Below, piece after piece: positions 5,761-49,554 of a DNA stretch of 64,000 nucleotides (its first letter is position 1; each line of letters starts with the position of its first letter). The notes beneath the pieces are model-generated. The model was not told where the DNA came from. It worked only from the letters and a program-made list of their open reading frames with translations, and made no database searches. The position numbers and the translations under genes were made by a program. The DNA is from a phage: NCBI GenBank assembly GCA_011915565.1, contig GCA_011915565.1_3920.1, one strand, 5' to 3'.

Positions 5761-7995
5761 ATGATTAAGACAATTAAAAAATCAAATGGTACAGTAGTAA
5801 GCTTTGACCCAGAAAGACTGAATAAGTGGGCATCATGGGCAGATAAACGTGGAATTATCTGGTCAGAAGTCACTATGGAAGCTATGAAACGTGTCTATGA
5901 GGGTTGCACTACAAAAGAGATGCACCAAGCCATGATTGATGTTTGTGTTGATAAACAAACTCAAGAGTACTCAGATATGGCTGGACGACTGCTTTTGGGT
6001 ATTATCTACAAAGAAGCCTTTGGAGGCTTTACTAAGGTTCCTACGCTGATTACCTTCGTTAAAAATATGGAGAGAGCAGGACTTTGGGAGAAGATGGATT
6101 ATTCACAGGAAGAGCTTGAATACCTGCAAGGTTACATCGTGCACTCAAAAGATATCTCTTACGGTTATGCAGTCTTGAAACAGTTCAGAGACAAGTACGG
6201 TATCCGTGATATTAAAACGGGAAGACTGTTTGAGTCACCACAATTTATGTTCATGGGTATGGCTATGAAAGCCTTTGAGAAGCAACCAAAGCACCGTAGA
6301 CTGCAAGATGTTATCAAGCTGTACACTTACCTATCTGACCTGAAGATTAACGCTCCTACGCCCTATTTAAACGGGTTAAGAGCAACTAAATCAGGTTATG
6401 CGTCATGCTGTTTGATTAAGGCAAATGACACTGCTGAATCACTTGGTATTGCTGCAAAGGTTGCTTATGATATGACTACAAAGCAAGCTGGTATTGGTAT
6501 GCTTATGGAGACTCGCACTATTGGTGATGGTATCCGTCAAAATACTATTGAGCACATGGGTAAGCTACCTTATTACAAGCTTGTACGTTCATCTGTAGAG
6601 GCAAATAAACAGAAGAGCCGTGGTGGTTCAGCTAATAACTTCTACACTGCTCTAGACCCGCAGATTGAAGATTTACTGCGTTTGAAGCACCCTACAACGG
6701 TTCCTTCTAAACGTATTAATGAGATGGACTATTCATTCGGCACAAACGATTATTTCTGGCAGTGTGTTCAGTATGATACAGATTGGTTGCTATTCTCTTA
6801 CAAAGATGCACCAAAACTCTATGACATGTTCTACACAGCATCTGCTGATGAGTTTGCTATGGCAGTTGGTCATGCAGTACATTCAGGTGTTAAGCACAGA
6901 CGGGTAAAGGCTCGTGAAATTGCTAAGCTGTTTATTCAACAGCGTTATGCTACAGGTCGTGTGTATCCATTCTTCACTAACAATGTAAACACACATACAC
7001 CATTTAAAGAACCATTGAAGATGTCAAATCTTTGTATGGAAATTGTATTGCCAGTGTATGGTTTTGAGAAAGAGACAGACCTTTACAGAGATGATGCTGT
7101 GAAAGAGGATGGTGAGGTGGCTCTTTGCTTCCTAGCTAGTTTGGTTGCAGGGAGAATTTCAGAAGATGAATACGCTGACGTTGCTTATTATGCTCTTGCA
7201 ATGGTTGACTCCGTTATTGACCTTATGGATTATCCGTATCCGTCGATGCGTAACCATGTTCAGAAGCGTCGTTCTGTTGGGATTGGCCTTACAAATGTGG
7301 CTCATTACCTTGCGAAGAACTACGTGAACTACTCTTCACGAGCAGGTAAGACAAAGCTTCATGAACTTGCAGAGATGCACTCTTACTACTTACACGAAGC
7401 CTCTCTGAGACTTGCTAAAGAACGTGGTGTACCTGAGTATATGCAGTTCACTAAGTATCCTGAAGGTTGGGTTCCTCCGAAGACAGCTAACAGGAAGATT
7501 GATGAGAAGCATGATGCAAAGCTTCGTTATGATTGGGATGACTTAGCACAACGTATTAAAGAAAATGGTGGAATCCGAAACTCTGTATTAGAAGCTTACA
7601 TGCCTAATGAGAGTTCTTCACTGGCAACTAATACGACAAATGGCTTGTATCCAATTCGTGACTTTATTTTAACTAAAAAGTCTGCAACTGGTAACGTACT
7701 GTTTATTGTTCCAGATTATGAAGAGTTGAAGTATGTCTATGAAATTGCTTGGGATATTGACACCTTTGATATGATTGATTGTTATGCAATTGTTCAAAAG
7801 TTCACTGGTCAAGCTATCTCTTCAGACTTCTATGTTGACTATGCAAAGTCTAAGAAGGTATCATTGGCTCAAGCTCTGAAGTACATGATTTATGCCAACT
7901 CGGTAGGTATGAAAACCATGTACTATCTTAACAGTCGCATTGGTGTAGGTAAATCTGCACTGCAAGATGCTTATTGCGAGGGTTGTGGTGTTTAG
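5761..7995 (+). CDS. nrdA: ribonucleotide reductase class I large subunit
   Basis: 744 aa; N-terminal ATP-cone-like region (VSFDPERLNKW), active-site-like CCLIKAND, C-terminal CEGCG tail. Confidence 0.85.
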   Translation: MIKTIKKSNGTVVSFDPERLNKWASWADKRGIIWSEVTMEAMKRVYEGCTTKEMHQAMIDVCVDKQTQEYSDMAGRLLLGIIYKEAFGGFTKVPTLITFVKNMERAGLWEKMDYSQEELEYLQGYIVHSKDISYGYAVLKQFRDKYGIRDIKTGRLFESPQFMFMGMAMKAFEKQPKHRRLQDVIKLYTYLSDLKINAPTPYLNGLRATKSGYASCCLIKANDTAESLGIAAKVAYDMTTKQAGIGMLMETRTIGDGIRQNTIEHMGKLPYYKLVRSSVEANKQKSRGGSANNFYTALDPQIEDLLRLKHPTTVPSKRINEMDYSFGTNDYFWQCVQYDTDWLLFSYKDAPKLYDMFYTASADEFAMAVGHAVHSGVKHRRVKAREIAKLFIQQRYATGRVYPFFTNNVNTHTPFKEPLKMSNLCMEIVLPVYGFEKETDLYRDDAVKEDGEVALCFLASLVAGRISEDEYADVAYYALAMVDSVIDLMDYPYPSMRNHVQKRRSVGIGLTNVAHYLAKNYVNYSSRAGKTKLHELAEMHSYYLHEASLRLAKERGVPEYMQFTKYPEGWVPPKTANRKIDEKHDAKLRYDWDDLAQRIKENGGIRNSVLEAYMPNESSSLATNTTNGLYPIRDFILTKKSATGNVLFIVPDYEELKYVYEIAWDIDTFDMIDCYAIVQKFTGQAISSDFYVDYAKSKKVSLAQALKYMIYANSVGMKTMYYLNSRIGVGKSALQDAYCEGCGV

Positions 7996-38891: not shown

Positions 38892-39356
38892 TTACTTTGG
38901 ATATACACTGTCAAGATAAATGTCAGCTTCCATTCTACGTCTGTTTTTCAGACCGTTTGAAGTGACCTTCTTACCTTTGACTGTAACCTTGTTCCACCAC
39001 TGCATAGCTTCTGCACAACCTACCTTATTACCAGCATTGTGGCGCTTGATAAATGTGGAATCCTGCATAGCTGTGATACCGATGTTGTATGTTTCACTTA
39101 CAAGTGCATCGAACTCATTCTGAGTAGTTGGAACCTTGATAGCTTTGTTCACTGCTGCAACAAACTTCTCAACATCCGCGAGAAGATACTGTTCAGCTTG
39201 TTCAGCGGTGATTTTCATTCCCATCTTAACAGGTTTTCCGTCAATACGGATTGTACCATACCCGATTGTTGGGATTCCGGCAGAGTCTTCGTAAGCCTCT
39301 AACTCCAGACCTTCGAAGAACTTAATAGCTTCTAAACCTTTTCTTGAGAGTTGCAT
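38892..39356 (-). CDS. endolysin, phage lysozyme (GH24, T4-lysozyme-like)
   Basis: 154 aa; GLEAIKFFEGLELEAYEDSAGIPTIGYGT matches the T4/lambda lysozyme catalytic N-terminal region. Confidence 0.8.
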   Translation of the reverse strand: MQLSRKGLEAIKFFEGLELEAYEDSAGIPTIGYGTIRIDGKPVKMGMKITAEQAEQYLLADVEKFVAAVNKAIKVPTTQNEFDALVSETYNIGITAMQDSTFIKRHNAGNKVGCAEAMQWWNKVTVKGKKVTSNGLKNRRRMEADIYLDSVYPK

Positions 39357-42567: not shown

Positions 42568-43983
42568 ATGAGCGAATTATTTAAACATGCGCACCTTCAT
42601 GCAGGTCGAACTGAAAATGGTGCTGTAAACCATACTTCATCAATGTCTGCTCTTGTAGACTTTTACAAAGCTGCTGGTTCAAGCCGTAGCAATGTAGAAA
42701 TCTTACCAGACCTGTTCTACAAAGCTTTGCGTGAGGATGTTGATGTTGCAGTTCGTATTTTACTGCATATGCGAGATGTACGAGAAGGTATGGGTGAGCG
42801 TAAGGCCTTCAGAACTGTTTTACTTCAAGCGATTGAAGACAAAGTTTTAGAGCCTACGCAGGTTCTTCGCATTATGGATAAGGTTGCAGAACTTGGTCGT
42901 TTTGATGACTTCAAAATCTTCGTAGGTACTCGTTTCGAGACAGATGCCTTCAAGCATTTAGAAGCAGCATTACTAGACCCTGCAACAGCAGGTTTGGCGG
43001 CTAAGTGGTTACCACGAGTCAAACCACGTCATAAGCAGTTTGTAAAACGTTTCTGCAAGTTTGCCAACTTGAGTGAGAAAGAGTACCGCACACTGTTGTC
43101 TGCACTATCTGATACAGTTGAGCAAAAAATCTCTGCTAATGAGTTTGGTAAGATTGATTACAGCAAGATTCCTTCACTTGCTGCTGCACGTTACCAAAAA
43201 CTCTTTAACCGTAAAGATGGGGAACGTTACAAAGCTTACATTGAGTCTTTATCAAAGGGCGAGGCTAAGATTAATGCTGGTGCTGTTTACCCATACGATG
43301 TGATTAAATCTGTTAAGTATGGTAATGCAGATGTTGCTAATGAGCAGTGGAAAGCACTACCAAACTGGATGGCAGAAGGTGAAAACATCCTATGTATGAC
43401 TGATGTTTCAAGCTCAATGTATTGGGTGAATTTTGGTTCAATCACTGCACTTGATATTGGTGTATCACTTGCCTTGTATGTAGCAGAACGCAATACAGGT
43501 TGCTTTAAGGATGAGTTGATGGTTTATTCAACAAACCCTCACTTCATCGAACTGAGTGGTGATTTACGAAACCGTCATCGTCAGGTGATGCGACACGTTG
43601 AATATGGCTCAACCAACTTACAAGCAGCTTTTGACCGCATTCTTGAAACAGGTAAAAGAAACAACTTGACTCAGAAAGATATGCCAAGTAAGCTTATCAT
43701 CTTCTCCGATATGGAGTTTAATCAGGTTGATGGTGCTAATGGTCGTACAAACTTCGAAGCAATTCGAGATAAGTACGAAAAAGCTGGATATGAGATGCCA
43801 CAACTGGTATTCTGGTACTTAGCAAACCGTAATGGTACTTGCGAAGTATCTATTAAGGATAACGGTGTAGCAATGGTATCTGGTTTCTCTCCAGCCACTT
43901 TAAAAGCTTTGCTTGGTGGTGAGAAGTTTGACCCAATCAGCGTAATGCTCAAAGCAGTAATGATTGACCGTTACATCTGGTAA
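42568..43983 (+). CDS. von Willebrand factor A (vWA) domain protein with N-terminal helical domain
   Basis: 471 aa; MIDAS-like DVSSSM at about residue 280; domain order resembles Ro60/TROVE or DUF2828-type proteins (inference). Confidence 0.7.
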   Translation: MSELFKHAHLHAGRTENGAVNHTSSMSALVDFYKAAGSSRSNVEILPDLFYKALREDVDVAVRILLHMRDVREGMGERKAFRTVLLQAIEDKVLEPTQVLRIMDKVAELGRFDDFKIFVGTRFETDAFKHLEAALLDPATAGLAAKWLPRVKPRHKQFVKRFCKFANLSEKEYRTLLSALSDTVEQKISANEFGKIDYSKIPSLAAARYQKLFNRKDGERYKAYIESLSKGEAKINAGAVYPYDVIKSVKYGNADVANEQWKALPNWMAEGENILCMTDVSSSMYWVNFGSITALDIGVSLALYVAERNTGCFKDELMVYSTNPHFIELSGDLRNRHRQVMRHVEYGSTNLQAAFDRILETGKRNNLTQKDMPSKLIIFSDMEFNQVDGANGRTNFEAIRDKYEKAGYEMPQLVFWYLANRNGTCEVSIKDNGVAMVSGFSPATLKALLGGEKFDPISVMLKAVMIDRYIW

Positions 43984-44148: not shown

Positions 44149-44225
44149 CTCTGTTTAGCTCAGCTTGGTAGAGCGTTCCGTTTGGGGCGGTAAGGCCGGA
44201 GGTTCAAGTCCTCCAACAGAGACCA
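44149..44225 (+). tRNA. tRNA-Pro (anticodon TGG)
   Basis: Manual cloverleaf: acceptor CTCTGTT/AACAGAG, GGTTCAAGTCC T-arm, CCA encoded. Confidence 0.7.
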
Positions 44226-44232
44226 AATTAAT

Positions 44233-44310
44233 GTTCCAGTAGACAAAATGGTAAAGTCACCACTCTTTCAAAGTGGATATCTGAGGGTTCAAATCCCTTC
44301 TGGAACGCCA
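44233..44310 (+). tRNA. tRNA-Glu (anticodon TTC)
   Basis: Acceptor GTTCCAG/CTGGAAC; anticodon stem CCACT/AGTGG, loop CTTTCAA; CCA encoded. Confidence 0.7.
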
Positions 44311-44315
44311 GTTTT

Positions 44316-44392
44316 GACAGAAGACCAATTACAGCAAACTTAATCTTATTCATCTGAAGGTAAATCGGACAAAGAAGAGATTTGGTCTGGTC
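44316..44392 (+). other. tRNA-spacer structured element, copy 1 (CAGAAGACC...GGTCTGG)
   Basis: Conserved CAGAAGACCAATTACAGCAA head and TTGGTCTGG tail forming a 7-bp closing stem. Confidence 0.5.
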
Positions 44393-44401
44393 ATTAAGAA
44401 T

Positions 44402-44478
44402 TGCGGGTATAGAGAAAGGGTGTCTCACATGTCTCATTAGCATGGTATCGGCAGGTTCGACTCCTGCACCCGCCTCCA
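44402..44478 (+). tRNA. tRNA-Met (anticodon CAT)
   Basis: D-stem GAGA/TCTC, anticodon loop CTCATTA, T-arm GCAGG-TTCGACT-CCTGC, CCA encoded. Confidence 0.65.
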
Positions 44479-44480
44479 AA

Positions 44481-44550
44481 TTTACAGAAGACCGTTTACA
44501 GCAATACTTATTAAATTTTTAGCGGAAAAATTGAAAGATACGGTCTGGTA
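44481..44550 (+). other. tRNA-spacer structured element, copy 2
   Basis: TTTACAGAAGACCGTTTACAGCAA...ACGGTCTGG. Confidence 0.5.
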
Positions 44551-44561
44551 ATACTAAACAT

Positions 44562-44638
44562 GGTTAGGAAGCACATAAGGTATGTGCGGTCGCCTGTTAA
44601 GCGAATGGCACAGGGTTCGAATCCCTGACTAACCGCCA
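44562..44638 (+). tRNA. tRNA-Asn (anticodon GTT)
   Basis: Acceptor GGTTAGG/ACTAACC; anticodon loop CTGTTAA; T-arm CAGGG-TTCGAAT-CCCTG. Confidence 0.65.
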
Positions 44639-44646
44639 AATTAAAT

Positions 44647-44734
44647 GTGTCGTTATCCCGTAGATGGTAGCGGTGGGGACTGTAAATCCCTTGTCATTGA
44701 GACTCGGTAGGTTCGACTCCTACACGGCACACCA
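44647..44734 (+). tRNA. tRNA-Tyr (anticodon GTA), long variable arm
   Basis: 88 nt; anticodon stem-loop GGGGA-CTGTAAA-TCCCT; type II structure. Confidence 0.65.
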
Positions 44735-44739
44735 ATAAA

Positions 44740-44816
44740 GGCTATGTAGTTTAACTGGAGAAAATACTCCCCTGTCACGGGAGATGATGTGAGTTCAAGT
44801 CTCATCGTAGCCGCCA
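44740..44816 (+). tRNA. tRNA-Asp (anticodon GTC)
   Basis: Acceptor GGCTATG/CGTAGCC; anticodon stem CTCCC/GGGAG, loop CTGTCAC. Confidence 0.7.
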
Positions 44817-44875
44817 ATTTTGAGAGGGCTATTTAGTTCCTCCCTTAAAGAGTTCTTACGAGTATTCTTTAAAGG

Positions 44876-44952
44876 AGCAGAAGACCAAATACAGCAAGAA
44901 TGTATGAAATTTCAAGCCAATTTAATTTTGAAAATTTAAAACTTGGTCTGGC
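44876..44952 (+). other. tRNA-spacer structured element, copy 3
   Basis: GCAGAAGACCAAATACAGCAA...CTTGGTCTGG. Confidence 0.5.
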
Positions 44953-44963
44953 TCAACAAATTT

Positions 44964-45098
44964 ACAGAAGACCGTTTACAGCAAAACTTAAACAATCTAT
45001 TTCTCCGGTAAAGAAAAGGCGAAGGTTCGATTCCTTCACTCGGCAGATGTCGAGTTGGTGTAATGGTAGCACTTAAGATGATAAACAACGGTCTGGTA
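44964..45098 (+). other. tRNA-spacer structured element, copy 4, containing a degenerate tRNA-like segment
   Basis: TTTACAGAAGACCGTTTACAGCAA head; T-arm-like GAAGG-TTCGATT-CCTTC, hairpin ACTCGGCA/TGTCGAGT, D-arm-like TGGTGTAATGGTAGCAC, then ACGGTCTGG. Confidence 0.45.
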
Positions 45099-45239
45099 AT
45101 TATCTTTGTAGATAAGTTATTAAGCTTACCTGTGAGTATGCGACCACAAAGGGTGAAGGGTAAATTCTAGATTTAAACCCAAAAGGCACATCGCTACAGA
45201 CCTTAAGCAAGTCTGGGTAGCTTATCTACAAAGATAATT
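45098..45239 (+). other. perfect 19-bp inverted repeat enclosing 104 nt
   Basis: AATTATCTTTGTAGATAAG at 45098-45116 and its exact reverse complement at 45221-45239; lies between spacer element 4 and tRNA-Lys. Confidence 0.6.
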
Positions 45240-45243
45240 TAAT

Positions 45244-45319
45244 GGAAGTGTAGCAGAATGGTGATGCGGCAGACTTTTAATCTGACAGGCGATGGGTTCG
45301 AATCCCTCCACTTCTACCA
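45244..45319 (+). tRNA. tRNA-Lys (anticodon TTT)
   Basis: Anticodon loop CTTTTAA; T-arm ATGGG-TTCGAAT-CCCTC; paralog of the 46541 tRNA. Confidence 0.6.
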
Positions 45320-45397
45320 AATTCACCCTTAACTGAGAAACACCTGCGCGGCTGGAAACACCCACTCAACAGTTTCTCTAACTAGGGTACTTATTCT

Positions 45398-45474
45398 GGT
45401 TCAGTCGCAGATAAGGTAATGCAAGGGTCTCATAAGCCCTATGAATGTGGGTTCGATTCCCATCTGAACCTCCA
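45398..45474 (+). tRNA. tRNA with CAT anticodon (Met or lysidine-Ile)
   Basis: Acceptor GGTTCAG/CTGAACC; anticodon stem AGGGT/GCCCT, loop CTCATAA. Confidence 0.6.
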
Positions 45475-45475
45475 A

Positions 45476-45551
45476 GCTGGTATAGTTAAGAAGGTTATAA
45501 CACTCCCCTGATAAGGGAACATCGGTGGTTCGATTCCACCTACCAGTACCA
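45476..45551 (+). tRNA. tRNA-Ile (anticodon GAT)
   Basis: Acceptor GCTGGTA/TACCAGT; anticodon loop CTGATAA. Confidence 0.65.
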
Positions 45552-45566
45552 ATTTCAATAAAGTTG

Positions 45567-45595
45567 TTGACATTGAGATGTGACTCCTTTATACT
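45567..45595 (+). promoter_or_regulatory. sigma70-like promoter (TTGACA-17-TATACT)
   Basis: Inside the tRNA array, upstream of a 200-nt hairpin-rich spacer and tRNA-Arg. Confidence 0.55.
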
Positions 45596-45797
45596 AACCT
45601 TAGTTTTCGTTGCGTAGCGTCTATTTTGCAAATTTAAAATAAATGCAAACGACAATGTTTTTCTGGCAGTAGCTTGATAGGCTAAACACCAGTGAGGTCT
45701 TCCAATCCCTCATCAAAGAATTTGGCGTACTCGCCCACGGTATGATTAATAAGGTGGGCATCTTTAAGGGCTTTCTAAGAGAGTCTTTAAAGATAAT

Positions 45798-45874
45798 GCA
45801 CCCTTAGTTCAATTGGATAGAGCAACGGTCTTCTAAATCGTTAGTTACAGGTTCGAATCCTGTAGGGTGTACCA
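45798..45874 (+). tRNA. tRNA-Arg (anticodon TCT)
   Basis: Acceptor GCACCCT/AGGGTGT; D-arm GTTC...GAGC; anticodon loop CTTCTAA. Confidence 0.7.
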
Positions 45875-46016
45875 AATAGTTAGCAGATTACTTAGACGGC
45901 CTTAGCGGGTCTTCCTGTAGGGAGGTGGTCTGTATCTCATGTTTTCCAGAACATGTAAATAATCTGAGAAGAAGCTTGACAGTGTTGAGATAACAGGGTA
46001 AGCTTCGAATTATAAT

Positions 46017-46099
46017 ATGGGACGATGTTAAGACTCTAAGGCATGAGCAACGGCCTCCAAAACCGTTTCAAAGGGGTTCAACTCCTCCGTCCCATGCCA
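46017..46099 (+). tRNA. tRNA-Trp (anticodon CCA)
   Basis: Acceptor ATGGGAC/GTCCCAT; anticodon loop CTCCAAA; 83 nt with enlarged D region; preceded by TATAAT. Confidence 0.55.
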
Positions 46100-46112
46100 A
46101 AGTCTTATTAGG

Positions 46113-46200
46113 GGTAGGTAGCGGCTAATGGCAGCCAAACAGTCTTGAAAACTGTTGCCACTGTAGAGATACGGTGAGGGTTCGACTCCTTTACTTACCG
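46113..46200 (+). tRNA. tRNA-Ser (anticodon TGA), long variable arm
   Basis: Anticodon stem ACAGT/ACTGT, loop CTTGAAA; type II; no CCA encoded. Confidence 0.6.
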
Positions 46201-46376
46201 CCTAATAAGATTTACTCCGTCCATGCTTGTTCGCATTGTCGGTTTATCCCTCGTGTATTGTCGTACACTGTCAAAGCACCTAGTAGGTGTCACGGAGAAG
46301 AGATAATATCAAGCTCTCCAAAGGTTCTAGTCACCGGATTAAACAAGACTATGCAAAGACCTATTTAGGTCTTTTT
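46201..46376 (+). ncRNA. candidate structured non-coding RNA ending in an intrinsic terminator
   Basis: No ORF; long-range complementarity (ACTCCGTCC ... GTCACGGAGAAG); ends with AGACC-TATTT-AGGTCT plus TTTTT at 46355-46376. Confidence 0.4.
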
Positions 46377-46456
46377 AGAGGGCTTCTAAGGTTATTAGTC
46401 GCTTGTTGTGGAACCTTGTTGCTCAGGTTCTTAGAAGTTCTCTAAAAAGATTTAAT

Positions 46457-46533
46457 GCACCTATAGCCCAACTGGTAGAGGCAGCAGACTTAGAATCTGC
46501 TCAGTGTGAGTTCGAATCTCTCTAGGTGTACCA
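46457..46533 (+). tRNA. tRNA with TAG anticodon (Leu by anticodon; short variable arm)
   Basis: Acceptor GCACCTA/TAGGTGT; anticodon stem GCAGA/TCTGC, loop CTTAGAA; 77 nt, type I. Confidence 0.55.
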
Positions 46534-46540
46534 AATTAAT

Positions 46541-46616
46541 GCAGGTGTAGCAAAATGGTTATGCGGCTGACTCTTAATCAGTAAGACGATGGGTTCAATT
46601 CCCTCCACCTGTACCA
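46541..46616 (+). tRNA. tRNA-Lys (anticodon CTT)
   Basis: Paralog of the 45244 tRNA; anticodon loop CTCTTAA. Confidence 0.55.
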
Positions 46617-46622
46617 AACAAT

Positions 46623-46698
46623 GGGGTCATAGTTTATATGGTTAAAATTCGAGTTTTGCAAACTTGGGAACCGAGTTCAATTCTCGGTGACTCCACCA
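46623..46698 (+). tRNA. tRNA-Ala (anticodon TGC)
   Basis: Clean 76-nt cloverleaf: GGGGTCA acceptor, GTTT/AAAT D-stem, loop TTTGCAA, T-arm CCGAG-TTCAATT-CTCGG. Confidence 0.7.
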
Positions 46699-46704
46699 AT
46701 TAGT

Positions 46705-46779
46705 GCATCCATAGTTTAAACGGGAAAATTACAGTCTTCCAAACTGAGGTTGAGGGTTCGATTCCCTCTGGATGCTCCA
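46705..46779 (+). tRNA. tRNA-Gly (anticodon TCC)
   Basis: Acceptor GCATCCA/TGGATGC; anticodon loop CTTCCAA. Confidence 0.65.
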
Positions 46780-46786
46780 AATTAAT

Positions 46787-46862
46787 GCTCCTATCGTATA
46801 ATTGGTTATTACGGTTGCCTTGTAAGCAACTTATCAGGGTTCGAGTCCTTGTGGGAGCACCA
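46787..46862 (+). tRNA. tRNA-Thr (anticodon TGT)
   Basis: Anticodon stem GTTGC/GCAAC perfect, loop CTTGTAA; T-arm CAGGG-TTCGAGT-CCTTG. Confidence 0.7.
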
Positions 46863-46892
46863 ATTCAGAGGTCAAGTGAAAGACCGCTTTGA

Positions 46893-46950
46893 GTCAACTG
46901 AAGACCGTAACAAATTCCACGGAGTTGAGTTAGCGGCACAACTCCAGACC
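46893..46950 (+). other. tRNA-spacer structured element, diverged copy 5
   Basis: CTGAAGACCGTAACAAATTCC related to the CAGAAGACC head; enclosed by AGAGGTC/GACCTCT inverted repeat. Confidence 0.4.
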
Positions 46951-46958
46951 TCTTTCAT

Positions 46959-47033
46959 ACTCGCTTAGTTTATATGGTAAAACATCACCCTTACAAGATG
47001 AAGAAAAAGGTTCAAGTCCTTTAGTGAGTACCA
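46959..47033 (+). tRNA. tRNA-Val (anticodon TAC)
   Basis: D-stem GTTT/AAAC; anticodon loop CTTACAA; T-arm AAAGG-TTCAAGT-CCTTT. Confidence 0.65.
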
Positions 47034-47034
47034 T

Positions 47035-47112
47035 GTTCCAGTATCCCAATTGGCAGAGGATGCAAGCTCAAACCTTGTATTAGTGACGGTTCGAATCCGT
47101 CTTGGAACACCA
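47035..47112 (+). tRNA. tRNA with CAA anticodon (Leu by anticodon; short variable arm)
   Basis: Acceptor GTTCCAG/TTGGAAC; anticodon stem GCAAG/CTTGT, loop CTCAAAC; T-arm GACGG-TTCGAAT-CCGTC. Confidence 0.55.
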
Positions 47113-47117
47113 ATTTT

Positions 47118-47193
47118 GCAGGATTAGTTCAAATGGAAAGAGCAACAGTCTACGAAGCTGTTAATAGGGGTTCGAATCCCTTATCCTGCGCCA
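47118..47193 (+). tRNA. tRNA-Arg (anticodon ACG)
   Basis: Clean 76-nt cloverleaf; anticodon stem ACAGT/GCTGT, loop CTACGAA. Confidence 0.7.
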
Positions 47194-47210
47194 GATAAAA
47201 AGGTGATACT

Positions 47211-47453
47211 ATGCAAACATTAACAGTAGTTGAACATGAAAACTGTGAGAGTATTGAGTTTGTCAGGGTCATTGGTGTTGAACACCACATTTTCTTAAAA
47301 GTTGGATACTTATGTGACCCCGCTAGAGTAGAAAGATTTATACGTGATTGTTTTGGTGGTAGACATCTGAAGAGTGTTATTTTTGAGACAGTTTTACCAG
47401 AAGGTTTAGAAACGAATAATAACATTTACCTCCTTACGAGGATTAGACAATGA
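47211..47453 (+). CDS. hypothetical protein embedded in tRNA array
   Basis: 80 aa; AAGGTGA RBS 6 nt upstream; directly follows tRNA-Arg. Confidence 0.5.
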   Translation: MQTLTVVEHENCESIEFVRVIGVEHHIFLKVGYLCDPARVERFIRDCFGGRHLKSVIFETVLPEGLETNNNIYLLTRIRQ

Positions 47454-48007
47454 GATACTTAAAGTATGCTTCATGGATTTTCTTAGCTTTGTTAGAGCCA
47501 TTTGCAGCAATCTTAGCAGTTATCTTAGCACCTTTTGTAGTTCCATTCTACAGTGAGAAGAAAGGACACTTACCTTTCGGGTTCAGATGGATGGAGACTT
47601 ATGACAACCCAATTGATGGTGATGCAGGTCATATCAAACGATGGGCTAAGATTAGAAAGATTGGTAAGCTTGGTGTCTACATGCAGAGAGTTGGATGGCT
47701 CTGGAGAAACAAAGCTTATAACTTCTCTTACCATGTGTTAGGAAGAGATGTAAAAGACGTTACTAAGTGGAAAGGTAATATCAACGTAAGTTCTAACCCT
47801 GAAGATAATCAGACAGGTTATCTCCTAATGTGGAACAGTAATGCTTGGGGATTATTCGCTTTTATCCCATCAATTAAAATCTTTGGTAAACAATTCTACT
47901 GGAGAATTTATGTTGGATGGAAACTTAAAAGTGTTGTCCCAGAAGAAAGAGCATTCTCAAGGGAAAGAGTTATGTTGGCATTCTTTATTCATCCACTAAG
48001 AAAGTAA
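47450..48007 (+). CDS. membrane protein embedded in tRNA array
   Basis: 185 aa; N-terminal TM segment WIFLALLEPFAAILAVILAPFVVPF; start overlaps upstream stop (ATGA). Confidence 0.6.
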   Translation: MRYLKYASWIFLALLEPFAAILAVILAPFVVPFYSEKKGHLPFGFRWMETYDNPIDGDAGHIKRWAKIRKIGKLGVYMQRVGWLWRNKAYNFSYHVLGRDVKDVTKWKGNINVSSNPEDNQTGYLLMWNSNAWGLFAFIPSIKIFGKQFYWRIYVGWKLKSVVPEERAFSRERVMLAFFIHPLRK

Positions 48008-48015
48008 AGATTTAA

Positions 48016-48091
48016 AGGGGATTAGTTTACAAGGTTAAAACCTCGGTCTTTGAAATCGAAGAAGTTGGTTCAATTCCAACATCCCCCGCCA
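48016..48091 (+). tRNA. tRNA-Gln (anticodon TTG)
   Basis: Anticodon loop CTTTGAA; T-arm GTTGG-TTCAATT-CCAAC; unpaired 1:72 and G73. Confidence 0.65.
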
Positions 48092-48093
48092 AT

Positions 48094-48172
48094 GCTCCAT
48101 TACTCCAATTGGCAGAGAGGCCAGACTTAAAATCTGTGTTATGTATCGGTTCGAATCCGATATGGAGTACCA
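48094..48172 (+). tRNA. tRNA with TAA anticodon (Leu by anticodon; short variable arm)
   Basis: Acceptor GCTCCAT/ATGGAGT; anticodon loop CTTAAAA; D-loop AATTGGCAGA shared with the 47035 tRNA. Confidence 0.5.
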
Positions 48173-48177
48173 AATTT

Positions 48178-48253
48178 AGCGGTATAGCATAACTGGCAAT
48201 GCAGCAGCCTCTGAAGCTGTCCTATTAAGGTTCAAATCCTTATGCCGCTGCCA
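48178..48253 (+). tRNA. tRNA-Gln (anticodon CTG)
   Basis: Acceptor AGCGGTA/TGCCGCT; anticodon stem GCAGC/GCTGT, loop CTCTGAA; G73. Confidence 0.6.
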
Positions 48254-48284
48254 CTTCTAAGGATTCTTACGAGAGTCCTTAAAT

Positions 48285-48360
48285 GTGGCCTTATCATAAA
48301 TGGTAATGACCCATGCTGTGAACATGGTCTATACGGGTTCAAATCCCGTAGGTCACCCCA
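48285..48360 (+). tRNA. tRNA-His (anticodon GTG)
   Basis: Anticodon stem CCATG/CATGG perfect, loop CTGTGAA; discriminator C. Confidence 0.7.
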
Positions 48361-48366
48361 ATTTAT

Positions 48367-48442
48367 AGTCCAAGTAGCTTATATGGTTAAAGCGCGTGTC
48401 TGAAAAACATGAGAAGAGGGTTCAAATCCCACTGGACTACCA
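48367..48442 (+). tRNA. tRNA-Phe (anticodon GAA)
   Basis: Anticodon stem CGTGT/ACATG, loop CTGAAAA; T-loop TTCAAAT; CCA encoded. Confidence 0.6.
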
Positions 48443-48458
48443 ATTTCAAAGGTGCTTA

Positions 48459-49193
48459 ATGAAAGAGATGACAGAACAAGGTAAGGAGATTTTCAATCTC
48501 TTAAAAACCGGTAAAGGGTTTTCTAACCCCCTTATTACTGGTGCAGCAGTTCTCGGTGGAACCGTAGCTGCCTCTACATCACTTGTAAGCTCTATTAGCT
48601 CTGTATCAGACCCTACAGTAAAGGATAAGCTTGTTGCTGCTGGACTTACAACAGTTCTGCTTAACAGCTTTACCACGAGTCTGACAAGCACTACATCAAC
48701 TACCAAAACACTAACAGATTACGGTCAAAAGTCCATTGATGAGTTTTCATCACGTATGCAGGTAGCAAAAGGTTACTCTAATGTTATGGGTGCAGCAGGT
48801 GAACAAGTTGGCTGTACACCATTTAGTGGTATTATGGGTGTTGCTACAGAGTATGGTCAAAAAGCTATTGATACGATTAACAGTGCACTAGATAGTGTTA
48901 ATGGTGTGTTAAGTGACTTACAAGATGCTATTGACAAAGGTCTTGATACTATTTCTGATTTAGCTGAGCAAGCTGTTAGTAAGATTAATGAAGGTATTTC
49001 AAAAATTACAGCTTATGCAGATGAAGTTGTGCAGATGATTGAAGAAGAAGCTGCTCTTATTGCAGAGTACCTTAAAACGAATATCAATGGGTTCTTAGCA
49101 GGTATCTTACCAGACTGGTTTGATGATGCTTGTAAAACTGGTGTAATTGACACTATTGCAACACCAGAAATGAAGAACGCATTACAGAAATAA
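48459..49193 (+). CDS. hypothetical protein (Ser/Thr-rich N-terminus, helical C-terminus)
   Basis: Track ORF starts at 48396 inside tRNA-Phe; first ATG after the tRNA (48459) with AAAGGTG RBS chosen. Confidence 0.55.
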   Translation: MKEMTEQGKEIFNLLKTGKGFSNPLITGAAVLGGTVAASTSLVSSISSVSDPTVKDKLVAAGLTTVLLNSFTTSLTSTTSTTKTLTDYGQKSIDEFSSRMQVAKGYSNVMGAAGEQVGCTPFSGIMGVATEYGQKAIDTINSALDSVNGVLSDLQDAIDKGLDTISDLAEQAVSKINEGISKITAYADEVVQMIEEEAALIAEYLKTNINGFLAGILPDWFDDACKTGVIDTIATPEMKNALQK

Positions 49194-49195
49194 AT

Positions 49196-49288
49196 GGAAG
49201 ATTAACCCTAAAAGGTAAGGGAGCAGTTTGCTAAACTGCCAGTAGCTGAGAAATCGGTGTACCAGTTCAAGTCTGGTATCTTCCTCCA
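49196..49288 (+). tRNA. tRNA-Ser (anticodon GCT), long variable arm
   Basis: Acceptor GGAAGAT/ATCTTCC; anticodon stem GCAGT/ACTGC, loop TTGCTAA; T-arm TACCAG-TTCAAGT-CTGGTA. Confidence 0.65.
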
Positions 49289-49292
49289 ATTT

Positions 49293-49368
49293 GAATCCGT
49301 GACAGAAACGGCTATGTGCCTGTCTGCAAAACAGGTTTATAAGGGTTCGAGTCCCTTCGGATTCTCCA
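49293..49368 (+). tRNA. tRNA-Cys (anticodon GCA)
   Basis: Acceptor GAATCCG/CGGATTC; anticodon stem CCTGT/ACAGG, loop CTGCAAA. Confidence 0.7.
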
Positions 49369-49530: not shown

Positions 49531-49554
49531 GACGGTCTCTGTGCCGTCTTTTTT
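49531..49554 (+). terminator. intrinsic terminator
   Basis: GACGG-TCTCTGTG-CCGTC then TTTTTT. Confidence 0.7.

What the first reader, a model, noticed from the sequence alone, without database searches (positions are those of the whole stretch)
47211..48007. Two protein-coding genes, one a membrane protein, embedded inside the tRNA array
An 80-aa ORF with a good RBS and an overlapping 185-aa ORF with an N-terminal TM segment sit between tRNA-Arg(ACG) and tRNA-Gln(TTG), so they are likely co-transcribed with tRNAs. Protein genes nested in tRNA arrays are often mobile or accessory cargo such as homing endonucleases or anti-defence factors; neither product has a recognisable motif.
Basis: seen in the sequence. 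Interest (0 to 1): 0.45.

Follow-up and report, generated by a model that had tools for sequence, protein, structure and literature searches.

The report
Two accessory genes inside phage tRNA array
Two real but already catalogued phage genes of unknown function sit inside the tRNA gene cluster of a Felix O1-like phage. One encodes a membrane-anchored protein (family DUF7338) that recurs in the tRNA clusters of unrelated large phages and beside tail-fibre and lysis genes in small ones.

Summary
ORFs 47211-47453 (80 aa) and 47450-48007 (185 aa) lie between tRNA-Arg(ACG) and tRNA-Gln(TTG). Both have ribosome-binding sites, they share a 4-nt ATGA overlap, and both are under purifying selection (dN/dS 0.26 and 0.07).

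The window is a Felixounavirus, 99.6% identical to phage Pr103Blw. Both proteins are already in GenBank as hypothetical proteins. The 185-aa protein does belong to a recognisable family, Pfam DUF7338. It has one N-terminal membrane helix and a basic, strongly conserved C-terminal domain. The predicted fold (pLDDT 94) matches no solved structure.

The two genes are independent accessory cassettes. Related phages carry both, only DUF7338 (Felix O1), or only the small ORF (Sf17, whose whole genome lacks DUF7338).

DUF7338 also lies in or beside tRNA clusters in T4-like phages, Av-05 and a Pseudomonas phage. In small myoviruses it lies between tail-fibre and endolysin genes. In RB49-type phages an exact T4 late promoter precedes it.

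The best reading is a dispensable, envelope-acting accessory membrane protein, probably lysis-associated, carried in the plastic tRNA region. It is not a homing endonuclease and not the holin. Its function remains inferred. The finding is ordinary for the window and modestly interesting for the family.

The parts
44149..49368 (+). array of 26 same-strand tRNA genes that hosts the two ORFs and a third protein gene
   Evidence: ARAGORN; Rfam RF00005 hits
47118..47193 (+). tRNA-Arg(ACG), upstream neighbour; its 3' CCA ends 17 nt before the ORF80 ATG
47200..47206 (+). Shine-Dalgarno-like AAGGTGA for ORF80
   Evidence: read from the sequence
47211..47453 (+). ORF80 (80 aa, phrog_14202). It is a small, non-hydrophobic, probably cytoplasmic accessory protein that is present or absent among Felixounaviruses.
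   Evidence: AF2 model only pLDDT 62.7
47438..47442 (+). GAGGA Shine-Dalgarno for the DUF7338 gene, inside the 3' end of ORF80, 7 nt before the ATG
   Evidence: read from the sequence
47450..48007 (+). DUF7338 gene (185 aa, Pfam PF24027, phrog_2143); the start overlaps the ORF80 stop (ATGA)
47468..47548 (+). codons 7-33 of DUF7338, the single N-terminal hydrophobic (transmembrane) helix with a conserved acidic residue (E15) and an invariant P28
   Evidence: KD 2.38; AF2 helix 2-33; alignment; family statistics
48016..48091 (+). tRNA-Gln(TTG), downstream neighbour, 8 nt after the DUF7338 stop
49531..49548 (+). intrinsic-terminator-like hairpin plus T-run after the last tRNA; likely end of the array transcript

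Best explanation
SHOWN. The window is a wV8/Pr103Blw-type Felixounavirus. ORF80 and the 185-aa DUF7338 gene are genuine, purifying-selected protein genes packed between two tRNA genes, with no room for their own promoter or terminator. They are two independent, dispensable cassettes. Related Ounavirinae carry both, only DUF7338, or only the ORF80 homologue, and phage Sf17 has no DUF7338 anywhere in its genome. DUF7338 is a stand-alone family of about 857 clusters at 50% identity, almost all 160-210 aa. Members have one N-terminal hydrophobic helix and a basic C-terminal domain with invariant polar and aromatic residues (T50, D52, G57, W83, W85, R86, N87, Y90, R152, G156, W157, K158). The confidently predicted fold has no match among solved structures.

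INFERRED (expression). In this phage the pair is transcribed as part of the tRNA precursor. The mRNA would be freed by tRNA processing: RNase P at the 5' end of tRNA-Gln and 3' maturation of tRNA-Arg. ORF80 would be translated from its own SD, and DUF7338 by coupling (ATGA) plus its own SD.

INFERRED (function). DUF7338 is a bitopic inner-membrane protein. Charge bias favours the N-terminus in and the C-domain in the periplasm. Its membrane-proximal conserved pocket would act on a conserved envelope component. I favour a non-essential auxiliary role late in infection at the lysis step, as a lysis helper or regulator rather than the holin. The main alternative is superinfection exclusion. ORF80 is a small cytoplasmic accessory protein of unknown role that is not an obligate partner of DUF7338.

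INFERRED (location). The tRNA-array position reflects genome architecture, not tRNA biochemistry. tRNA clusters are the plastic, endonuclease-visited region of large virulent phages, and cassettes lodged there hitch-hike.
For: Identity and annotation.
Coding: dN/dS 0.066 and 0.255; HMM hits.
Geometry and absence of transcription signals.
Cassette independence: 10 of 21 Felixounavirus loci have ORF80 (gap 256-257 nt) and 11 of 21 lack it (gap 18-19 nt, own SD AAAGAGG). Felix O1 has ORF48 (DUF7338) only. HP1 has both. Sf17 and ESh21 have only the 75-aa homologue, with its stop fused to tRNA-Gln. tblastn and an HMM search find no DUF7338 in the whole Sf17 genome.
Topology. The N-flank is more positive than the C-flank in 66% of members against 16% the other way. 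The C-domain is net positive in 92%.
Lysis and tail-fibre synteny: DUF7338 lies directly before or within 3 genes of endolysins of three Pfam families (GH108, Phage_lysozyme, Amidase_2) in at least five small-phage lineages. In S16/STML-198 it lies ~900 nt upstream of a lysozyme that tblastn links to other phage endolysins (not Pfam-scanned). It also follows tail-fibre and chaperone genes.
Late timing in T4-likes: a hairpin terminator followed by an exact TATAAATA at -34 in RB49-type loci and L045, against a background of 0.097 per kb.
Plastic region: three HNH genes in the Felix O1 tRNA array. SegB targets a tRNA motif and drags flanking genes (PMC2330249). PeSL cassettes occur in T4-like phages (PMC4122927).
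Recurrent tRNA embedding.
Against: No experiment bears on either protein, and there is no literature on DUF7338. The lysis link is guilt by association only. In the same small phages the gene also follows tail-fibre genes, so a moron at a module boundary explains the synteny equally well. In one lineage it sits inside the baseplate cluster and in others in unrelated contexts. In this window the endolysin (38892-39356, minus strand) is 7.9 kb away, and the lysis genes of Ounavirinae are scattered. Timing in Felixounavirus is unknown. The late-promoter inference comes from T4-likes only. Topology is predicted, not measured, and a strongly basic 150-aa domain could also be cytoplasmic. mRNA release by tRNA processing is inferred from spacing alone.
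Confidence: 0.5

Rival explanations
1. DUF7338 is the phage holin, or a second one. It would be a class-III-like holin (one TMD, large periplasmic domain, like T4 gpT) that permeabilises the inner membrane to release endolysin. A few GenBank records label it this way.
For: It has one N-terminal TMD and a large C-terminal domain. It lies immediately upstream of endolysins of three families in several small phages. A late promoter precedes it in RB49-type phages. The label 'holin' appears in PV390658, MW006482, MZ327262 and OK539913.
Confidence: 0.08
2. DUF7338 is a superinfection-exclusion or envelope-modifying protein. It would be a membrane-anchored periplasmic factor that blocks entry or DNA injection of competing phages, or masks or alters a conserved envelope structure, by analogy with T4 Sp/Imm or the Cor/Llp genes encoded next to tail-fibre genes.
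For: It is membrane anchored with a predicted periplasmic domain. In small myoviruses and prophages it sits directly after the tail-fibre and chaperone genes, and in a Chitinivorax prophage it is the last gene before host DNA, a typical moron position. It is dispensable and patchily distributed. In Ounavirinae it rides on the tRNA transcript, which may be early, as the Felix O1 authors expected.
Against: An exact late promoter preceded by a terminator in RB49-type phages argues against early expression. Very strong purifying selection and high identity across phages with different receptors are unlike arms-race exclusion proteins. It has no similarity to any known exclusion protein family. It is rare in bacterial genomes and prophages, with 6 loci in 185,579 species genomes.
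Confidence: 0.2
3. DUF7338 has a tRNA- or RNA-related function, for example protecting, processing or localising phage tRNAs or countering tRNA-targeting defences. That would explain why it is embedded in tRNA arrays.
For: It is embedded in or within about 1 kb of tRNA genes in Ounavirinae, Av-05, several Straboviridae genera, an uncultured lineage at 34% identity (L055/58/60) and Pseudomonas phage Roomu-2 at 23% identity. The domain is strongly basic, with pI 10.1 and net charge +14.
Against: Among the loci fetched, most of the distinct lineages have no tRNA within 6 kb and place the gene by tail, lysis or baseplate genes. In T4-likes a terminator separates it from the tRNAs. The conserved membrane anchor, the lack of any RNA-binding or nuclease domain and the lack of structural similarity to RNA enzymes all argue against it. 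Sf17 keeps the full tRNA array without the gene.
Confidence: 0.05
4. ORF80 and DUF7338 form an obligate two-component module, such as regulator/effector or antitoxin/toxin, because they are translationally coupled.
For: The ATGA overlap is conserved in Felixounavirus, Mooglevirus HP1 and Av-05, where a profile HMM shows the 76-aa ORF is homologous (E 4e-16).
Against: Each gene occurs alone at the same slot. DUF7338 occurs without ORF80 in Felix O1 and in 11 of 21 loci, and ORF80 occurs without DUF7338 in Sf17 and ESh21. DUF7338 occurs in 573 phage records and ORF80 in only 70. Their evolutionary rates differ: ORF80 allele classes show dS 0.66-0.77 against 0.17-0.28 for the adjacent DUF7338.
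Confidence: 0.07

Closest known systems
Pfam DUF7338 (PF24027) / PHROG 2143, e.g. Felix O1 ORF48 'phage conserved protein', RB16p078, S16 gp73, phiR1-37 g263
   Same: It is a full-length HMM match (208 bits against a cut-off of 27). The exact sequence is already in GenBank as QSL98986.1. It has the same length, N-terminal helix and invariant motifs as the other members.
   Different: Nothing differs. It is an ordinary member, and the family itself has no known function or solved structure.
T4 holin gpT (class III holin) and its antiholin RI
   Same: The topology is bitopic, with one TMD and a large C-terminal domain. It is encoded next to tail-fibre or endolysin genes in some phages and has a late promoter in some T4-likes.
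   Different: There is no sequence or fold similarity. It is dispensable. It coexists with other holin candidates. It is far more conserved than holins usually are.
Protein ORFs and homing endonucleases inside phage tRNA clusters (T4 segB and tRNA.1-4; Felix O1 HNH ORF44/45/47)
   Same: These are protein genes interspersed among same-strand tRNA genes in a plastic region, with presence/absence variation between close relatives (PMC2330249).
   Different: Neither ORF80 nor DUF7338 has a nuclease domain. They would be passengers rather than the mobile agent. This window's array contains no endonuclease ORF.
Superinfection-exclusion or moron proteins encoded beside tail-fibre genes (T4 Sp/Imm, Cor, T5 Llp); comparison from general knowledge
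   Same: They are envelope-located, non-essential, patchily distributed and adjacent to tail fibres in small phages and prophages.
   Different: There is no homology. DUF7338 is larger, enzyme-like in its conservation and predicted to be late in T4-likes. No exclusion phenotype is known.

Membership tests
Pfam DUF7338 (PF24027) | Whole-protein HMM score above the curated gathering threshold, over the full model length | tested here: met
   E 1.1e-61, 208.1 bits against a cut-off of 27, residues 1-184 on model positions 1-176 of 180. Also phrog_2143, E 5e-81.
Pfam DUF7338 (PF24027) | Single-domain architecture of about 180 aa with an N-terminal hydrophobic helix and the WLWRN / GWKLK motifs | tested here: met
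   Alignment of 30 homologues shows invariant W83, W85, R86, N87, Y90, G156, W157 and K158. Of 173 representatives, 97% have one N-terminal hydrophobic segment.
PHROG 14202 (ORF80 family) | HMM match over the full length | tested here: met
   E 1.2e-37, residues 1-80 on model positions 1-76 of 76. A profile built here also recovers Av-05 ORF76 at E 4e-16.
Holin (any class) | Membership of a described holin sequence family | tested here: not met
   No Pfam, NCBIfam or PHROG holin family is hit at E<=1.
Holin (any class) | At least one transmembrane domain | tested here: met
   One strong hydrophobic helix at residues 7-33.
Holin (any class) | Required for lysis, so conserved in every member of the phage group | tested here: not met
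   The gene is absent from the complete genome of Ounavirinae phage Sf17, which keeps a separate putative holin, lysin and spanins.
Holin (any class) | Forms lethal inner-membrane lesions that release endolysin at a programmed time | not testable with these tools
   This needs induction or complementation assays. The published 'holin' labels rest on BLAST only (PMC9120918).
Homing endonuclease (HNH, GIY-YIG, LAGLIDADG) | Presence of a nuclease catalytic domain | tested here: not met
   Neither ORF has a nuclease domain. HNH ORFs are found at other slots of the array in Felix O1.
Anti-defence protein | Similarity to a known anti-defence family, or conditional essentiality on a defence-carrying host | not testable with these tools
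   No anti-defence library is available. PADLOC, a library of defence proteins, gives no hit. The Bas63 knockout data (PMC11482910) have no held supplement.
Superinfection exclusion (T4 Imm/Sp type) | Sequence membership of a known exclusion family | tested here: not met
   No hit in Pfam, PHROGs or NCBIfam.
Superinfection exclusion (T4 Imm/Sp type) | Blocks entry or injection of a superinfecting phage | not testable with these tools
   This needs plating or injection assays.

The most novel reading that the evidence does not exclude
DUF7338 defines a previously unrecognised, orphan-fold class of bitopic phage envelope proteins. Members would be late-expressed, with a membrane-proximal catalytic or ligand pocket, and would assist or tune lysis or act on a conserved envelope lipid or peptidoglycan intermediate. 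The cassette has been captured repeatedly in the tRNA arrays of unrelated large virulent phages (Ounavirinae, Straboviridae, Av-05, Pseudomonas phage Roomu-2), probably by endonuclease-driven or terminator/promoter-bounded cassette exchange. In Ounavirinae it would be expressed by tRNA-punctuated processing of the array transcript.
Probability: 0.25. Interest if true: 0.55.

Novelty: already known. Interest (0 to 1): 0.3.

Why it matters
For this window it matters little. Both genes are already annotated as hypothetical proteins in hundreds of Felix O1-like genomes, and the larger one belongs to a named Pfam family.

The wider pattern is more useful. DUF7338 has about 857 clusters at 50% identity, a confident orphan fold and enzyme-like invariant residues. 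It is one of the few protein genes that recurs inside the tRNA arrays of unrelated phages, and in small phages it sits at the tail-fibre/endolysin junction. That gives a testable lead to an uncharacterised envelope or lysis function in phages used for therapy and biocontrol.

It also corrects a 'holin' label that is propagating through GenBank without evidence. Finally, the three-state slot (both genes, either one alone) is a clean natural example of cassette turnover inside a tRNA array.

Tried and rejected

2. Sequence search of the PDB found nothing below E 0.66.

4. NCBIfam and PADLOC gave nothing for either ORF.

5. Literature. There are no papers on DUF7338. The Bas63 genome-wide knockout preprint has no held supplement, so the orthologue's fitness could not be read. 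The phiR1-37 RNA-seq paper does not mention g263. The Felixounavirus transcriptome search was uninformative.

6. PHROG scan of the small ORFs next to DUF7338 in other phages gave no functional names beyond one weak Rz-like hit.

7. Homing-endonuclease reading: rejected, no nuclease domains.

8. Horizontal acquisition visible in base composition: rejected. GC is 37-39%, like the rest of the phage.

9. Direct repeats at the ORF80 indel junction: none seen.

10. The gp49 'structural protein' in the Felix O1 paper is a 51-kDa protein. This is a numbering mismatch with the array ORFs and is not evidence that they are virion proteins.

Full report
WHAT IS THERE. The two ORFs are exactly as described: 47211-47453 (80 aa) and 47450-48007 (185 aa), both on the + strand. 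They lie between tRNA-Arg(acg) at 47118-47193 and tRNA-Gln(ttg) at 48016-48091, inside an array of 26 same-strand tRNA genes at 44149-49368 (Rfam confirmation).

The sequence shows the following layout.
- The gap from the tRNA-Arg 3' end to the ORF80 ATG is 17 nt and contains AAGGTGA.
- The ORF80 stop overlaps the DUF7338 start as ATGA, with GAGGA 7 nt upstream.
- Only 8 nt separate the 185-aa stop from tRNA-Gln.

The consensus scan finds no promoter-like or terminator-like site above chance inside this interval. A good terminator occurs only after the last tRNA, at 49531-49548. Co-transcription with the tRNAs is therefore close to unavoidable here. The further step, that the mRNA is released by tRNA processing, is inference.

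WHOSE GENOME. The region is 99.6% identical to Escherichia phage vB_EcoM-Pr103Blw and 93-99% identical to about 250 Felixounavirus records such as wV8 and the O157 typing phages. Both ORFs are annotated there as hypothetical proteins. The exact protein sequences are already in NCBI and UniRef.

ARE THEY GENES. Yes. Across 22 Felixounavirus orthologues, Nei-Gojobori dN/dS is 0.066 for the 185-aa gene (230 pairs). For ORF80 it is 0.255 (10 sequences, 42 pairs). The 185-aa protein is a full-length member of Pfam DUF7338 (E 1e-61) and phrog_2143. ORF80 is phrog_14202.

ACCESSORY, INDEPENDENT CASSETTES. The slot between tRNA-Arg(acg) and tRNA-Gln(ttg) exists in three states in Ounavirinae.
- Both genes: the window, wV8 and Mooglevirus HP1.
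- DUF7338 only: 11 of 21 IMG/VR Felixounavirus loci and Felix O1 itself (ORF48). The tRNA sits 18-19 nt upstream, and the spacer carries its own SD, AAAGAGG.
- The 75-aa ORF80 homologue only: Sf17 and ESh21, where its TAG stop is fused directly to the first base of tRNA-Gln.

tblastn and a family HMM find no DUF7338 anywhere in the complete Sf17 genome. Sf17 nevertheless keeps a putative holin, lysin and spanins.

ORF80 occurs in only 70 phage records, all Felix O1-type (Ounavirinae) records. A profile adds the 76-aa ORF of Av-05, which likewise overlaps its DUF7338 gene (E 4e-16). ORF80 allele classes are older than their flanks: dS is 0.66-0.77 against 0.17-0.28 for the neighbouring DUF7338. 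So the two genes are often coupled but are not obligate partners.

THE DUF7338 PROTEIN. It has one strong hydrophobic segment (KD 2.38 at residues 9-27) and nothing else above 0.94. The C-terminal 152 residues have pI 10.1, net charge +14, 9 Trp and no Cys.

The alignment of 30 homologues shows a conserved acidic residue and an invariant Pro in the helix. The invariant residues are T50, D52, G57, W65, W83, W85, R86, N87, Y90, G109, G123, R152, G156, W157 and K158. N53 is nearly invariant. This pattern looks like a ligand or catalytic pocket beginning only about 15 residues after the membrane helix.

A profile search of 1.84 billion representatives finds 857 clusters, almost all single-domain proteins of 160-210 aa. 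Across 173 representatives:
- 97% have the single N-terminal hydrophobic segment;
- the N-flank is more positive than the C-flank in 66% and less positive in 16%, which favours N-in/C-out;
- the C-domain is net positive in 92%.

The family is rare in bacterial genomes. The single degenerate-pattern scan of 185,579 species genomes returned 6 loci, one of which is a contaminating T4-like phage contig.

WHERE ELSE THE GENE SITS. tblastn finds it in 573 phage records. These comprise Felixounaviruses (95-100% identity), Av-05 (79%), many T4-like genera (56-62%), the jumbo phage phiR1-37 (38%) and others down to 23%.

The gene is embedded in or within about 1 kb of tRNA genes in many lineages.
- A second Ounavirinae-like contig, between tRNA-Asp and tRNA-Ser.
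- Av-05.
- T4-like phages of the RB16/RB43, Karam, RB49, S16 and S13 types.
- An uncultured lineage at 34% identity (L055/58/60).
- Pseudomonas phage Roomu-2 at 23% identity, a bona fide DUF7338 at E 2e-42.

Many other lineages have no tRNA within 6 kb. There the commonest context is tail fibre, then tail-fibre chaperone (Phage_tail_APC, DUF4376 or Gp53-like_C), then DUF7338, then a small TM plus coiled-coil ORF, then endolysin. The endolysin is GH108, Phage_lysozyme or Amidase_2 depending on the lineage. S16 and STML-198 show DUF7338, then gp72.1, then a T4 e-type lysozyme ~900 nt downstream.

Other contexts also occur.
- One lineage has the gene inside the baseplate cluster.
- In a Chitinivorax prophage it is the last gene before host DNA.
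- Further contexts are uninformative.

TIMING CLUE. In T4-like phages the gene is preceded by a hairpin terminator. In RB49-type loci and L045 an exact T4 late-promoter box, TATAAATA, follows at -34. Its background frequency is 0.097 per kb on that strand. Karam-type loci have CATAAATA at the same place. In those phages the gene is therefore insulated from the tRNA transcript and is predicted to be late. That TATAAATA is the T4 late promoter is general knowledge of T4 transcription.

INTERPRETATION. The tRNA adjacency is real and recurrent, but a tRNA-specific biochemical role is unlikely for four reasons.
- The gene works in phages without neighbouring tRNAs.
- It is transcriptionally separated from the tRNAs in T4-likes.
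- It has a conserved membrane anchor.
- Sf17 can lose it while keeping the whole array.

The simplest explanation is architectural. tRNA clusters are the plastic region of large virulent phages. Felix O1 carries three HNH endonuclease genes in the same array. T4 SegB recognises a tRNA TpsiC motif and drags flanking tRNA-region genes into related phages (PMC2330249). Terminator/promoter-bounded cassettes (PeSLs) shuffle genes in T4-like hyperplastic regions (PMC4122927).

For function, several features point to a non-essential envelope-acting protein: the membrane anchor, the membrane-proximal conserved pocket, the basic domain, the late promoter, and the repeated position between tail-fibre and endolysin genes. 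I favour a lysis-auxiliary role, with superinfection exclusion or envelope modification as the main rival.

THE 'HOLIN' LABEL. A few GenBank records call the protein a holin. The label is not supported.
- It traces to BLAST similarity only, and the HP1 authors say it is unverified (PMC9120918).
- The protein hits no holin family.
- The gene is dispensable in Sf17.
- Ounavirinae have a separate holin candidate, and the Felix O1 authors did not list ORF48 among theirs.
- Its sequence conservation is unlike that of holins.

ORF80 remains a small, non-hydrophobic, faster-evolving accessory protein. Its AF2 model is poor and no functional inference is justified.

VERDICT. Co-transcription and accessory status hold. 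The homing-endonuclease reading does not, and the anti-defence reading is untested. The feature is already known as annotated hypothetical genes and a Pfam DUF. The modest added value is the cross-family synteny pattern, the orphan fold and the correction of the holin label.

Noticed in passing
window 48396-49193 (+); likely start ATG 48459, 17 nt after tRNA-Phe, by analogy with Felix O1 ORF49: A third protein gene lies inside the tRNA array, between tRNA-Phe and tRNA-Ser(gct). It is a ~244-265 aa helical protein of Pfam DUF7217 / phrog_2114, with weak tape-measure-like and ZorA-like coiled-coil hits. It is conserved in Felix O1 (ORF49), HP1 and Sf17, where it is annotated as a putative membrane protein.
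   Followed up: partly
window 42568-43983 (+): A 471-aa gene lies directly upstream of the tRNA array (DUF2828 + DUF7788; Felix O1 ORF42, 'RNA-binding protein'). In position it corresponds to Bas63 gp130, described as Ro60-like and shown to counter the ppl defence system (PMC11482910). That paper speculates that some array 'tRNAs' could be Y-RNA-like partners.
   Followed up: partly
window 45493-45797 (+): The 247-nt gap between tRNA-Ile and tRNA-Arg(tct) gives sub-threshold tmRNA and permuted-tmRNA hits (28 and 16 bits). It also holds the best promoter-like site of the region (45567-45595, 11 of 12 matches). The Moogle genome paper reports an ARAGORN tmRNA call in a related phage. ARAGORN finds none here.
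   Followed up: no
L040, L041, L043, L045 at about 5940-5975; L037-L039 at about 5945-5975; L028-L035 at about 5950-5985: In T4-like phages the DUF7338 gene is preceded by a hairpin terminator. RB49-type loci and L045 also have an exact TATAAATA late-promoter box at -34, so the gene forms a self-contained cassette resembling the terminator/promoter modules said to shuffle genes in T4-like hyperplastic regions.
   Followed up: partly
L054:6583-6852, L088:2877-3167, L068:5356-5676: Three unrelated small ORFs (89-106 aa), each with an N-terminal TM helix followed by a charged coiled coil, sit next to DUF7338 in different phage lineages. In L088 a separate Rz-type spanin is also present. This may be a recurrent partner.
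   Followed up: partly
L071:6907-8148 and L067:1746-2984: The Phage_lysozyme endolysin downstream of DUF7338 gives two separated tblastn pieces that flank an HNH/NUMOD3 endonuclease ORF (L071:7350-8033). This suggests an endolysin gene interrupted by a mobile endonuclease, as an intron or a split gene.
   Followed up: no
L036:6001-6700: In one 121-kb T4-like contig the DUF7338 gene is split into two ORFs (101 + 120 aa). This is probably a frameshifted pseudogene or a sequencing error, and no tRNA lies within 6 kb.
   Followed up: no
L106 (NZ_JBHSCL010000010.1, 178 kb contig of a 'Flagellimonas marina' assembly); PV390658; MG065664: There are apparent database mislabels. A 178-kb contig in a Flavobacteriia assembly looks like a T4-like enterobacterial phage genome. 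PV390658 is filed under Tequatrovirus but is Felixounavirus-like. 'Campylobacter phage A132' carries a 97%-identical Felixounavirus DUF7338 gene.
   Followed up: no
L109:7697-8350 (Pararobbsia silviterrae scaffold): A cluster of four tRNAs on the opposite strand lies 1.1-1.8 kb downstream of a 29%-identity DUF7338 homologue in a bacterial genome. I did not determine whether this is a prophage tRNA cluster or a host attachment region.
   Followed up: no
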